Below, in pieces: positions 9,001-12,000 of a stretch of 25,642 nucleotides of DNA. The stretch lies in the IMG/VR virus record IMGVR_UViG_2541047502_000029, one strand, 5' to 3'. The position numbers were made by a program. This DNA is from a virus. Lineage: Duplodnaviria > Heunggongvirae > Uroviricota > Caudoviricetes. Positions within the stretch are counted from its first letter, which is position 1; each line of letters opens with the position of its first letter.

Positions 9001-12000
9001 TTGACATGCGCGGCGCCGAATTCATTGCTGCCAGCACCATTCATGATATTCGTTAACCCAGGGTAGGCATCAATAAGTGCTGCTTCGACTTCGTACGCCG
9101 TCTTTTCATCAGTCATTCCGTGTCGATGGATGACATGGATAACCTCAAGTCCTGCTAACCTTATTTCTCTAATTTGCTTTAGCTTGTTGCTCAGTAACTC
9201 GTCATCATCAGTCGCTGCCACTTCACCGCGCATATGGGCAAATACGCGGTTACCTTTGCCTTTCCCTACATAGAAGGTGCTTCCGTCCCTCGGATCAATC
9301 AATCGGTATACATACCAGCCAAGGTGTTCAATTACTCCAGAAGGAAACTCAGTAATATCCATTTTGCAATATCTATGAATTATTCGTGAGACGTATATTA
9401 ATGAACATTGCAAGGGCTCACAACCAGTAGTGTTGAGAAAATCATCGGGGAAATGAGGCTAAGTCTTTGAATTTACATAGTACAAAAAAGATACTTTTCC
9501 TCATAATGTGAATTAATTTTATGTTTCGTTTGATGATTGGACCGGTCTCGAAAACCGGAGTAGGGGCAACTCTACCGGGGGGGCAAATCCCCCTCTCTCC
9601 GCCACTTTATCAATGACTTATCTCCCGACTTCCCGCCTTGCTTTTCCTAAACAGAACAATCGTAGAATATTCTTGAAGGGTTAGATCGTCACTGTTTTCT
9701 GTTCGATACTGTGACATTCAGCACTTGATTCGCTATGGATCTGACAGGAAGGTTTCGAGCGAAAATCTGCAGTTATTCAGTCGTTTTCTTATCGGTCACC
9801 ATTATTCTTTTAGACATTGATCCTACAAAGCTGCCGCAAAGTTGGTGGTGGGAACTGAAGTTGCGTAGAGAAGGGGTCAATACCCGGAGGCAAACATGGG
9901 CTGGCAAAAGTGTAGCGGTATTAGGCGCAGCTATTTAGCCTAGTTATGTTTTATGAAAACTTGATATCATATAAGTGTCTTACTTATTGGCTGTAAATAA
10001 GTTTTTCCTAAGGAATTGTTTCTTGAGTATCATTTGTAACTGTAACGGAATTTATAATCCTTTGCTTTATTGTTACGGTATTTTTTATCACACCCTATTT
10101 TTAGTGGTTTTTTATACTGAAGTTTGGCAAAGTGAACTTTATATACATATACTTCATCCTGGTTTCAGTTAAATTGGGTGGATGATATGGCAACTACATG
10201 TTCAGTTATATTGATTTTGGAGTCCTTTGATGTTTATTTCGGAAAAGAGAGTGTGTTTCTGGAGAGAGGTTCATCTGTACTTGTCGACTCTAGCTCTAGA
10301 GATTTTTTCCTGACATATCCTGAAAGAGTGATAGTGGCGGATTTTGGCGCTGAGTTTATTAGTCGCTATTTGAAAGCTAATAACTTAAGGGATATTTCTG
10401 ATTGTAGGGAATATCCATCTTATTTAAAAATAAACTTTGCTGACTTCAGTTTAATTAAAGGATTAATTAGTTGGGCTAATCACTGTGCTGAATACATAGA
10501 AATTTTTGATGAGTCTATTGCTTTTACATGTCTCTCTGCATTTTCTTCTGAAAAACAATTTGGAGTATTTCTGTTTGGATGTTTGAAAAGCACAGGGGCT
10601 AAAGTTAAAACGATTATTCATACGGATTTATCTGCACCATGGCGTCTTAAGGATATATCATCAAGATTATATCTCAGCGAAAGTTTACTAAAGAGGAAAT
10701 TGAAAGAAGAGGGGGTATCATTCAGTAAGATCATACTTGATGAGAGGATGCAAATGGCTGAATATTTACTCAGCACTCGTTGTTATCCTATTAGTAAAGT
10801 AGCTAAGGTCTGTGGTTATGCCAGTGTCTCATACTTTACTTATGTATTTAGACGTTATTTTGGTGTTTCTCCAAGTCAATACTCTCAGAGGAGTTCAGAA
10901 AGTAAAATTCTTACTCACCAGGGAATCTGATCATTGTTCTTGCCCCCTTATTTCCAGACAGGGGGTGTATCTTAAGTTAACGTTACCCGCTGACGTCGAT
11001 ATTCTCGCGGAGAGCGATAACCCAACGCACTGTGCGGATGGTTTTCATTGTAATGTTCGATCGCCACTGCAAGATTATGCAATGCCGTTCTTACATTCGG
11101 TTTCGGCATGAACGCGATATAGTCTTCCTTCATCGTTTTCACGAACCTTTCTGCAATTCCATTACTCTGAGGACTGCTGATTGCCGTTGTGCAGGGCTCC
11201 AGATTCAACTCTCTGGCGAACTGCCGTGTTTCATGCGCTCTATACGCTGAACCGTTATCTGTCAGCCACTGGATGGACTGTTCCGGTACTTTATCGCCAA
11301 AGCGTTTTTCTATCGCTCCTAACATGACATCCTGCACTGTCGCTTTATCGTAACCTCCCGTGCTTGCGGCCCAGTCTATGGCTTCACGATCGCAACAGTC
11401 CAGGGCGATTCATCTGGGCCAATCCTCGCTCATAACAGGCATTCACTTCAGTCATGGCAGAAAGGTATGCATGCTGGAGAAGTCGTGAAAGAAAAGAAGA
11501 CTGCTGCGCCGTTTGTCGTCACGTTTATCTTCATTGGCTATGCAAGTCGTAATACAAGGTGGGACAAAACTGAGACACATAAGGCCTCGCAATGGCTTGC
11601 AAGGCTTTACATGTTTTGATGTGGTGGGACGTGTGAGCGCAGTGTTGATGGGGTAATGCTTTGAATTAGAAGCGGATTCTTATAATTCGTAATGCGAAGG
11701 TCGTAGGTTCGACTCCTATTATCGGCACCATCTCAACTTCCTCAAACGTCCGTATTAGTCCATAAAATCTCTGATTTATAACATTTTTTATTCTTTTAAG
11801 TCCATAGTAGTCCGTAACCATCCAGTAGAATCCGGTACTGAATGTGTATAGGATTGTGTATATGTTCCTGTTCGGTCTGGATTCCTATACACATGCCTTT
11901 AAACGATATGCAGATTCGCCGCGCTAAGCCTGAAGCTAAAGCCTATACATTTGGAGATGGGCTAGGGTTGTCATTACTTATAGAACCTAATGGAAGCAAG

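What the first reader, a model, noticed from the sequence alone, without database searches (positions are those of the whole stretch)
9414..10930. Horizontally acquired AppY/EnvY-like AraC regulator with a 770-bp AT-rich leader, immediately followed by the IS2-like end
The regulator and its upstream region are much more AT-rich than the flanking prophage DNA, typical of H-NS-silenced accessory regulators. The IS2-like terminus begins only about 6 bp after its stop codon. Small ORFs in the leader (9735-9938, 9975-10172) lack RBSs and are more likely regulatory DNA. Such regulators in prophage ends can rewire host acid-resistance, porin or adhesin genes.
Basis: partly seen in the sequence, partly recalled or inferred. 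Interest (0 to 1): 0.4.

Follow-up and report, generated by a model that had tools for sequence, protein, structure and literature searches.

The report
PatE, a known prophage acid-resistance regulator
The gene is patE (Z0321/ECs0287) of E. coli O157:H7, an already characterised prophage-borne AraC-type activator of acid-resistance genes, and its supposed 770-bp "leader" is mostly a patchwork of old recombination scars rather than regulatory DNA.

Summary
The observation largely holds. An intact AraC/XylS-family gene lies at 10187-10930 (+, 247 aa; GC 35%). It is followed 4 nt after its stop codon by the right end of a truncated IS2-like (IS3-family) element.

The gene is not new. Its product is 100% identical to Sakai ECs_0287 and carries the same RefSeq protein accession as the only AraC gene of EDL933 prophage CP-933H (O-island 8). 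That gene is Z0321 = PatE, a published RpoS-dependent activator of gadE/gadBC/hdeAB that also lowers LEE expression.

Its nearest K-12 paralogues are YdeO (35%) and GadW (33%), not AppY (28%) or EnvY (C-terminal half only).

The "770-bp AT-rich leader" is a mosaic:
- the prophage right arm;
- 66 nt of the 3' end of tRNA gene serU plus 278 bp of serU-yodB chromosomal DNA, a fossil attR junction;
- 55 bp of an IS630-family end;
- only then 242 AT-rich bp (29% GC) that belong to patE.

Those 242 bp match the Q-to-AraC spacer of lambdoid prophages. They contain a TTGGCA-18-TATACT promoter-like site whose -10 hexamer is invariant in relatives down to 53% protein identity. The two small ORFs are very probably not genes.

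Verdict: already known, low interest.

The parts
8589..9362 (-). Neighbouring phage gene for a LEM-3-like GIY-YIG domain protein. It is the last gene of the myovirus-type tail/pin module and is not part of the patE unit.
   Evidence: Pfam PF22945, E 2.4e-14. PHROG 5356 over the full length. PGAP annotation in FRIK944.
9363..9538 (.). Right arm of a serU-integrating SfV/Mu-tail-type prophage. This is the AT-rich stretch next to attR.
   Evidence: It is contiguous with the GIY-YIG gene on one side and with serU' plus yodB on the other in strains MB15 and RMDEC332, with 100% coverage at 98.4% identity. 17 of the 24 differences from EDL933 fall at 9375-9542, mostly in this arm.
9539..9604 (+). serU': the 3' 66 nt of tRNA-Ser(CGA) gene serU, with TT changed to GG in the T-loop. 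It is a displaced attR copy, not a functional tRNA.
   Evidence: Alignment to K-12 serU positions 25-90. ARAGORN finds no tRNA. Only a weak, sub-threshold tRNA-like Rfam match. EDL933 keeps TT at these positions.
9605..9882 (+). Copy of 278 bp of the core-chromosome serU-yodB intergenic region. This is host flank attached to the attR copy.
   Evidence: About 97% identical to nearly every E. coli genome (5405 of 5426) at the serU locus. No gene is annotated there in K-12.
9883..9937 (+). Terminal 55 bp (3' end) of an IS630-family element, abutting a CTAG.
   Evidence: 92.9% match to the end of an IS630-family transposase gene and IS terminus on plasmid pJNE23-001_1. The sequence CTAG lies at 9936-9939.
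9945..10186 (+). Native patE upstream region. It consists of the last 9 nt of a lambdoid Q antiterminator gene, a decayed tR'-like hairpin and the patE promoter region (GC 0.29).
   Evidence: 83% identical to L009 5752-6000, the spacer between Q's stop and the AraC gene in a lambdoid prophage. L009 has a strong terminator 50 nt after Q, which is degenerate here.
10124..10153 (+). Predicted patE promoter: -35 TTGGCA, 18-nt spacer, -10 TATACT. The transcription start would lie near 10160.
   Evidence: 10 of 12 consensus matches. The same site occurs in the 84% relative. TATACT(T) is invariant in five lineages down to 53% protein identity. No transcription start has been mapped; this is inference.
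10177..10182 (+). Shine-Dalgarno-like GGTGGA, 4 nt before the ATG.
   Evidence: GGTGG is invariant in five lineages. EDL933 has G at 10179, which also abolishes the alternative GTG start at 10178.
10187..10930 (+). patE (Z0321 / ECs_0287), a 247-aa AraC/XylS-family transcriptional activator.
   Evidence: 100% identical to Sakai ECs_0287. Same protein accession, WP_000246059.1, as in EDL933 CP-933H. Literature. dN/dS of 0.16-0.32 against relatives.
10935..11404 (-). Truncated IS3-family (IS2-group; 'ISEc48 partial') element. The right inverted repeat and the 3' third of the transposase gene remain; the 5' part is missing.
   Evidence: It travels with patE in phages ev099 and mEp332 and in strain MS15047, with homology reaching 11408.
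11685..11731 (+). thrW': 47 bp identical to the 3' end of tRNA-Thr gene thrW. It marks attR of prophage Sp1/CP-933H and attL of the P4-like Sp2/CP-933I.
   Evidence: Local BLAST against the Sakai and EDL933 thrW loci. Sakai prophage boundaries.

Best explanation
The ORF is patE, the AraC/XylS-family regulator of E. coli O157:H7 prophage Sp1/CP-933H (O-island 8).

How it works:
- A C-terminal double helix-turn-helix domain of the GadX type binds AT-rich sites in acid-fitness-island promoters. Published targets are hdeA positions -132 to -45, with gadE and gadBC activated. This raises acid resistance and lowers LEE type III secretion gene expression.
- A beta-rich N-terminal domain of the YdeO/GadW type probably mediates dimerisation. 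No ligand is known.

Gene organisation:
- The gene is a self-contained phage 'moron'. It appears to be transcribed from its own promoter (TTGGCA-18-TATACT, 10124-10153) about 30 nt upstream of the ATG. The -10 hexamer fits the published RpoS dependence and stationary-phase induction.
- The family's usual position is between the Q antiterminator gene and the holin gene of lambdoid phages, the site that stx genes occupy.
- In this allele a roughly 1-kb piece, from Q's last 9 nt to the patE stop codon, was cut out by insertion sequences: an IS630 end on the left and an IS2-like remnant on the right. The right-hand IS replaced the native terminator.
- That piece was then fused to a fossil attR junction of serU-integrating prophages.
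- The resulting 1.87-kb block (9543-11408) now circulates in viable lambdoid phages and sits near the right end of the thrW prophage in O157.

Status of each step:
- Shown here: the identity of the gene, its intactness, the anatomy of the mosaic, and the conservation of the promoter-like site.
- Taken from the literature: the regulatory targets and the RpoS dependence.
- Inferred: the promoter assignment and the order of the rearrangements.
For: Identity:
- 100% identical to Sakai ECs_0287.
- Same protein accession as the sole AraC gene in EDL933's thrW prophage, with the same synteny: pinE, GIY-YIG gene, AraC gene, IS remnant, P4-like integrase.
- Z0321 is described as 'putative regulator (prophage CP-933H), O-island 8' and is RpoS-dependent. 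Z0321 = PatE, with its function described, in the review read.

Family and fold:
- Pfam and NCBIfam.
- GadX DNA-binding domain 3mkl: E 3e-24 by sequence. The model's C-terminal domain superposes on it at TM 0.9 and rmsd 1.7-1.8 A.

Functional constraint:
- dN/dS of 0.16-0.32.
- The locus (>=80% of 9414-10930) is present in 536 of 5426 complete E. coli genomes.
- 98-99% identical copies occur in the isolated phages PhiR70_1, mEp332 and ev099.

Promoter.

Moron origin:
- Relatives at 84, 79, 55 and 53% identity sit just upstream of the holin gene. The three with upstream DNA on the contig follow a Q antiterminator gene; in the 53% lineage a lipocalin and a desulfurase gene lie between Q and the AraC gene.
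- Homology to the 84% relative starts 9 nt before Q's stop and ends at the patE stop.

Mosaic.
Against: - I could not read the primary PatE papers (Bender 2012, Yang 2015); they are not held. The Z0321-to-ORF link therefore rests on a review, an array paper and synteny, not on a sequence printed in a paper.
- No transcription start site or H-NS data were available. The promoter-like site is one of only 2 consensus hits where shuffles give 5.4, so its support comes from conservation, not from the scan.
- The -13/-14 bases upstream of the -10 hexamer are not the textbook sigma-S 'C(-13)'.
- The N-terminal domain model is only moderately confident: pLDDT is about 70, with stretches below 50.
Confidence: 0.9

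Rival explanations
1. This is an uncharacterised AppY/EnvY-like accessory regulator kept silent by H-NS, and the whole 770-bp AT-rich upstream region acts as its regulatory leader.
For: The CDS and the proximal 242 bp have 29-35% GC, a composition typical of H-NS targets (general knowledge). AppY, a prophage relative, is reported to be influenced by H-NS.
Against: - The gene is characterised, as PatE.
- It is closer to YdeO and GadW than to AppY or EnvY.
- 9414-9944 consists of a phage arm, a serU attR copy, core chromosome and an IS630 end. GC there is 0.33-0.65 and the origins are unrelated to patE.
- In MS15047 an IS1 sits about 220 bp upstream of the gene, and homology to this window starts only at 9983. 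The distal part is therefore dispensable for carriage of the gene.
- Arrays show high stationary-phase expression.
Confidence: 0.12
2. The upstream open frame 9975-10172 (65 codons) is a real small hydrophobic protein or a regulatory upstream ORF that is co-transcribed with patE.
For: - An open frame of 64-69 codons ending 9-14 nt before the patE ATG persists in the 100%, 84% and 79% lineages. In the window/84% comparison (the only pair aligned for this) the indels compensate in frame.
- A stop-free run this long is reached by only 4% of dinucleotide shuffles.
Against: - There is no Shine-Dalgarno sequence and no shared start codon: GTG, ATG and TTG at non-homologous positions.
- The N-terminal two-thirds of the three peptides are not alignable. 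The conserved C-terminus coincides exactly with the conserved promoter DNA.
- In the 84% relative the frame runs through a strong intrinsic terminator.
- It is absent in the 55% and 53% lineages.
- It has no Pfam match.
- The strand is T-rich (44% T, 27% A), which lowers stop-codon frequency.
Confidence: 0.06
3. patE here is decaying cargo: a non-functional remnant stranded between IS fragments in a defective prophage.
For: It is flanked by truncated IS elements and has lost its native terminator. The Sakai/EDL933 version of the prophage is heavily deleted and carries several pseudogenes.
Against: - The reading frame is full-length with a complete HTH domain.
- The protein is identical across O157 strains.
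- The gene is under purifying selection.
- It is carried by viable phages.
- Phenotypes and expression are published.
Confidence: 0.02

Closest known systems
PatE (Z0321 / ECs0287), the prophage CP-933H/Sp1 AraC-like regulator of EHEC O157:H7 (Bender et al. 2012, as cited in PMC10877973)
   Same: It is the same protein: 100% identical to Sakai ECs_0287 and the same WP accession as in EDL933. The locus and the neighbouring genes are also the same.
   Different: - The protein does not differ.
- This window's strain is FRIK944-like. Its prophage is more complete, keeping tail tube to baseplate genes that are deleted in Sakai and EDL933.
- Its pin-invertible segment is in the opposite orientation to FRIK944.
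- 9363-11404 has 24 differences from EDL933, none in the CDS. One lies in the SD region (10179 T against G).
YdeO and GadW/GadX, the AraC-family regulators of the E. coli acid fitness island (AR2)
   Same: The domain layout and length are the same. Identity is 34.7% (YdeO) and 33.5% (GadW) over the full length. The DNA-binding domain is 42-43% identical to GadX's in the structural alignment and superposes on 3mkl. The target regulon is the same according to the literature.
   Different: PatE is not an orthologue: NCBIfam scores are 148 against a cut-off of 348 (YdeO) and 110 against 500 (GadX). It is phage-borne rather than chromosomal. No EvgA/SafA context is present.
   Same: They are AraC-family regulators. 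AppY also lies at the tail-fibre end of a lambdoid prophage next to cargo genes, and it also activates gadE/AR2.
   Different: Identity to AppY is only 28.4%. EnvY aligns over the C-terminal half only, at 38.6%. PatE belongs to a separate phage family, PHROG 1450.
PsrA/PsrB (Z1789, Z2104), prophage AraC-like regulators of EHEC
   Same: According to the review they share the same class, the same hdeA promoter region (-132 to -45) and the same prophage carriage.
   Different: The sequence relationship was not measured. I could not locate psrA in the EDL933 stretches I fetched. The 53%-identical group I found is not obviously present in O157.
Lambdoid-phage morons in the Q-to-S late region (stx genes, for example) and in the b region (lom, bor)
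   Same: Relatives of patE sit just upstream of the holin gene and downstream of Q (directly after it in two lineages), and the 84% relative has its own promoter-like site and its own terminator. This allele lies in the b region of ev099 and mEp332.
   Different: Here the gene has lost its terminator to an IS and lies beyond a fossil attR junction.

Membership tests
AraC/XylS family transcription factors | A conserved C-terminal domain of about 100 aa with two helix-turn-helix motifs | tested here: met
   Pfam HTH_18 at residues 161-238 covers 2-80/80 of the profile, E 8.8e-16; HTH_AraC E 1.3e-16, both above the gathering scores. In the model this domain has pLDDT of about 90 and superposes on the GadX DNA-binding domain 3mkl at TM 0.89-0.91 and rmsd 1.7-1.8 A.
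AraC/XylS family transcription factors | An N-terminal companion (dimerisation or ligand) domain, as in the full-length members GadX, Rns and ToxT | tested here: inconclusive
   Residues 1-140 align over the full length with YdeO and GadW, and residues 72-235 with CsvR and Rns. The model shows beta strands at 4-54, but pLDDT is about 70 or lower and the full-length TM to Rns is only 0.40.
PatE (Z0321) of EHEC O157:H7 | Same protein sequence as the gene in CP-933H / Sp1 (O-island 8) next to thrW | tested here: met
   100% identical to Sakai ECs_0287. WP_000246059.1 is the accession both in the 100%-matching strain FRIK944 and in EDL933. It is the only AraC-family gene in that prophage. The literature ties Z0321 to CP-933H/OI-8 and to PatE.
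PatE (Z0321) of EHEC O157:H7 | Activates gadE, gadBC and hdeAB, and raises acid resistance | not testable with these tools
   Taken from the review PMC10877973. The primary papers are not held.
YdeO (NCBIfam NF007407 equivalog) | Score at or above the curated cut-off of 348 bits | tested here: not met
   148.1 bits, E 3.3e-43, over the full length. Pairwise identity is 34.7%. PatE is a paralogue, not YdeO.
GadX (NCBIfam NF007432 equivalog) | Score at or above the curated cut-off of 500 bits | tested here: not met
   110.5 bits, covering the C-terminal part only.
   AppY is 28.4% identical. EnvY aligns only over residues 107-232. Both rank below YdeO and GadW.
H-NS-silenced horizontally acquired gene | Markedly AT-rich relative to the genome | tested here: met
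   GC is 0.35 in the CDS and 0.29 in the proximal upstream region, against 0.46 for the window and 0.54 for the phage tail genes.
H-NS-silenced horizontally acquired gene | H-NS occupancy and derepression in an hns mutant | not testable with these tools
   No ChIP or expression data were accessible. Published arrays show expression in wild-type stationary phase.
Phage moron (an autonomous cargo gene) | Own promoter and own terminator, inserted between phage genes or operons | tested here: inconclusive
   A conserved promoter-like site is present. The 84% relative has a terminator downstream, but here that terminator is replaced by the IS. No transcript mapping is available.
IS3 family, IS2 group (the adjacent element) | DDE (rve) transposase and IS2-like terminal inverted repeat | tested here: met
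   rve_3 E 7.6e-17. 70% nt identity to IS2 positions 857-1326, including the end. Annotated 'ISEc48, IS3 family, partial' in Sakai. The element is truncated at its 5' side and so is not mobile.

The most novel reading that the evidence does not exclude
The 1.87-kb block 9543-11408 consists of serU' attR, 278 bp of host flank, an IS630 end, patE and an IS2-like remnant.

- It would be a scar of aberrant excision or illegitimate recombination (in the manner of specialised transduction) of a serU-integrated prophage, now a stable part of viable lambdoid phage genomes (ev099, mEp332, PhiR70_1).
- PatE-mediated acid resistance would then be spreading today by lysogenic conversion.
- The O157 copy would have been acquired by recombination through the 344-bp serU-derived homology rather than as original cargo of CP-933H.
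- A corollary concerns the relatives still placed between Q and the holin gene. In those, the regulator could also be read through from pR' on prophage induction.
Probability: 0.4. Interest if true: 0.3.

Novelty: already known. Interest (0 to 1): 0.15.

Why it matters
PatE is one of several phage-borne AraC regulators (PatE, PsrA/B, AppY) that plug into the GadE acid-resistance circuit. Acid resistance underlies the low infectious dose of EHEC, so the gene matters biologically. It has already been described, however, so finding it again is not a discovery.

The modest added value is anatomical:
- Only about 242 bp upstream belong to the gene. Any promoter or H-NS study should use these, and not the 770-bp gap.
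- The conserved TATACT site is a concrete promoter candidate.
- The same block, with 98-99% identical protein, sits in isolated temperate phages. This offers a direct way to test lysogenic conversion to acid resistance.

Tried and rejected
- tRNA scan: no intact tRNA gene in the window. The tRNA-like stretch is a 66-nt 3' fragment.
- Rfam at a permissive threshold over 8000-13500 gave only sub-threshold chance or tRNA-fragment matches. There is no known leader RNA or riboswitch.
- The primary PatE and PsrB papers are not held. One literature search on 'PatE' as a whole word was swamped by unrelated uses of the word.
- I tried to measure PatE against PsrA/PsrB by fetching 75 kb of EDL933 around the expected position of Z1789. 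No AraC homologue was found there. The 53%-identical group (P0027-P0033) is common in other E. coli, but no O157 strain appeared among the 40 records sampled across the ranking. I therefore do not call it PsrA/B.
- I considered whether the promoter-like site could be the phage late promoter pR'. I rejected this as the main reading, because in the 84% relative a separate promoter-like site overlaps Q's end and a strong terminator follows it, both upstream of the AraC promoter-like site.
- I considered ORF 9735-9938 as a gene and rejected it. It starts inside the serU-yodB core copy, which is unannotated in K-12. It ends inside the IS630 fragment, so it is chimeric. It has no SD and no Pfam match.
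- Full-length fold comparison was not informative for domain arrangement: TM 0.40 to Rns, CsvR and ToxT.
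Full report
WHAT IS THERE

The window comes from E. coli O157:H7. The finding's interval matches many O157:H7 chromosomes at 100%, and 536 of 5426 complete E. coli genomes hold at least 80% of it. It lies in the thrW prophage region, where Sp1/CP-933H is followed by the P4-like Sp2/CP-933I.

The ORF list gives 10178-10930 (+) with a GTG start. PGAP annotates the ATG at 10187, giving 247 aa. That ATG is preceded by GGTGGA, a motif conserved in all relatives. EDL933 has G at 10179, which destroys the GTG. ATG 10187 is therefore the start.

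The protein has a complete AraC-type double helix-turn-helix domain (Pfam HTH_18 over 2-80/80, E 8.8e-16). Its C-terminal domain is 42-43% identical to the solved GadX DNA-binding domain. The predicted model superposes on that structure at TM about 0.9. The N-terminal half is beta-rich but modelled with only moderate confidence.

IDENTITY

The protein is 100% identical to Sakai ECs_0287. It carries the same RefSeq accession (WP_000246059.1) as the only AraC-family gene in the EDL933 thrW prophage.

An array study lists Z0321 as 'putative regulator (prophage CP-933H), O-island 8'. It was six-fold RpoS-dependent and highly expressed in stationary phase. ECs0287 is induced at entry to stationary phase.

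A 2024 review states that Z0321 is PatE, an AraC/XylS activator of gadB, gadC, gadE and hdeAB. It acts on hdeA promoter positions -132 to -45 and negatively affects six LEE genes. The gene is therefore already characterised. I could not read the primary papers.

Among K-12 paralogues the order is as follows:

| Paralogue | Identity | Extent |
|---|---|---|
| YdeO | 34.7% | full length |
| GadW | 33.5% | full length |
| AppY | 28.4% | full length |
| GadX | 35% | C-terminal |
| EnvY | 38.6% | C-terminal half only |

The best NCBIfam model is YdeO, far below its cut-off. 'AppY/EnvY-like' is thus only loosely right. The gene is under purifying selection, with dN/dS of 0.16-0.32 against relatives.

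THE 'LEADER' IS A MOSAIC

The real intergenic gap runs from 9363 to 10186, because the neighbouring GIY-YIG gene starts at 9362. Its parts are:

1. **9363-9538.** The right arm of a myovirus-tailed (SfV/Mu-tail-like) prophage.
2. **9539-9604.** The last 66 nt of tRNA-Ser(CGA) gene serU, with two T-loop changes.
3. **9605-9882.** 278 bp of the core serU-yodB intergenic region, about 97% identical to nearly every E. coli.
4. **9883-9937.** The terminal 55 bp of an IS630-family element, ending at a CTAG.
5. **9945-10186.** 242 bp that are 83% identical to the spacer between the Q antiterminator gene and an 84%-identical AraC gene in a lambdoid prophage. The homology begins 9 nt before Q's stop.

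I predicted that parts 1-3 are a displaced attR junction and tested this with a chimeric query. In strains MB15 and RMDEC332 the same GIY-YIG end, arm and serU' run straight on into yodB. That is the end of a complete prophage integrated at serU.

Only part 5 is strongly AT-rich, at GC 0.29. In strain MS15047 an IS1 sits about 220 bp upstream of the gene and homology to this window starts only at 9983. The distal parts are therefore not needed for carriage of the gene.

DOWNSTREAM

Homology to the 84% relative stops at the stop codon. That relative has an intrinsic terminator and then the holin gene.

Here, 4 nt after the stop, the right inverted repeat of an IS2-like element begins. The element is 70% identical to IS2 positions 857-1326, has an rve transposase fragment on the - strand, and is annotated 'ISEc48 partial' in Sakai. 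The IS has replaced the native terminator.

THE UNIT AND ITS RELATIVES

The whole block 9543-11408 is 99% identical in the isolated lambdoid phages ev099 and mEp332. There it lies between the tail-fibre assembly gene and the integrase end of the genome (int/xis are annotated in ev099). PhiR70_1 carries patE and the serU' copy as well.

The arm to the left of serU' in ev099 is itself found, in 131 genomes, as the native right end of a prophage at serU that continues into yodB. A serU-integrated lambdoid prophage record also exists. The block therefore carries a fossil attR junction with host flank, fused through IS remnants to a fragment of a lambdoid late region.

All four more distant relatives examined (84, 79, 55 and 53% identity) sit just upstream of the holin gene of lambdoid prophages. 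Where upstream DNA is available they lie downstream of a Q antiterminator gene, directly in two lineages and after two cargo genes in the 53% one. That is the position that stx genes occupy. PHROGs knows the family as phrog_1450, function unknown.

PROMOTER

One sigma-70-type site lies at 10124-10153: TTGGCA, an 18-nt spacer, then TATACT. The scan as a whole is not enriched, so the scan alone proves nothing.

The same site is present in the 84% relative. In a five-lineage alignment TATACT(T) and the SD GGTGG are invariant, while the rest of the spacer has diverged beyond recognition. TATACT is the hexamer typical of sigma-S-dependent promoters (general knowledge), which fits the published RpoS dependence. 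This is inference; no start site has been mapped.

SMALL ORFS

- **9735-9938.** It starts in the core serU-yodB copy, which is unannotated in K-12, and ends in the IS630 fragment. It has no SD and no family match. It is chimeric and not a gene.
- **9975-10172.** This one is more curious. A 64-69-codon open frame persists in the 100, 84 and 79% lineages despite indels. Only 4% of shuffles give a stop-free run as long. Against it: the start codons differ and lack SDs, and the N-terminal two-thirds are not homologous. The conserved C-terminus is simply the conserved promoter DNA. In the 84% relative the frame passes through a strong terminator, and it is absent in the 55% and 53% lineages. I rate it as probably non-coding, with a probability of about 0.06 that it is real.

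VERDICT

It misses that this is the known PatE, mislabels the nearest relatives, and asserts H-NS silencing, which I could not test and which published expression data do not favour.

Novelty: already known. Interest: low.

The only fresh points are the scar anatomy, the 242-bp native control region with its conserved -10 site, and the presence of the same block in viable phages.

Noticed in passing
window 9363-9882: A fossil attR junction of a serU-integrating prophage (phage arm, 66-nt serU 3' fragment and 278 bp of serU-yodB chromosomal DNA) sits inside the thrW prophage. The same junction in its native state, continuing into yodB, exists in strains MB15 and RMDEC332.
   Followed up: yes
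window 9543-11408; L016 2357-4222; L017 2355-4222: The block of serU' fragment, host flank, IS630 end, patE and IS2-like remnant is 99% identical in the isolated lambdoid phages mEp332 and ev099, so viable phages carry a piece of E. coli core chromosome; PhiR70_1 also carries patE and the serU' copy. The ev099 arm to the left of serU' is the native right end of serU prophages in 131 genomes. The order of events was not resolved.
   Followed up: partly
L009 5056-7134; L010 3472-7013; L019 3045-4735; L020 832-1959: All diverged PatE relatives (84-53% identity) lie just upstream of the holin gene of lambdoid prophages; where upstream DNA is present it includes a Q gene of one of three Pfam families (directly adjacent in L009 and L019, with two cargo genes between in L010). 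This is the site equivalent to that of stx. In L009 a pR'-like site and a strong terminator precede the AraC promoter-like site.
   Followed up: partly
window 6009-7911: The pin-invertible tail-fibre segment next to pinE (7974-8528) is in the opposite orientation to strain FRIK944, which is otherwise about 99.7-99.99% identical over the aligned parts.
   Followed up: no
window 1-8588, compared with L002/L015: This strain's thrW prophage keeps tape-measure, baseplate and tail-fibre genes that are deleted in Sakai Sp1 and EDL933 CP-933H, where the replication gene P abuts the tail-fibre gene.
   Followed up: no
window 11685-11731: A 47-bp exact copy of the 3' end of thrW marks the Sp1/Sp2 boundary (attR of one prophage, attL of the next). 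No intact tRNA gene is present in the window.
   Followed up: partly
window about 13078-16354 (L001 15665-18941): Just after the P4-like integrase (11893-13074), the satellite prophage carries genes annotated as an 'ABC-three component system' plus an AAA ATPase. This is a candidate anti-phage defence cargo in the P4 hotspot. In Sakai the ATPase region is annotated as a pseudogene.
   Followed up: no
window 10179: There is a T/G polymorphism between this strain (GGTGGA, as in all relatives) and EDL933 (GGGGGA), inside the patE Shine-Dalgarno region. It could alter translation efficiency between O157 lineages.
   Followed up: no
window 9975-10172: An open frame of 64-69 codons is kept upstream of patE in three lineages, with frame-compensating indels in the one pair compared (window against the 84% relative). 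It is probably a by-product of T-rich promoter DNA but is not formally excluded as a small ORF.
   Followed up: partly
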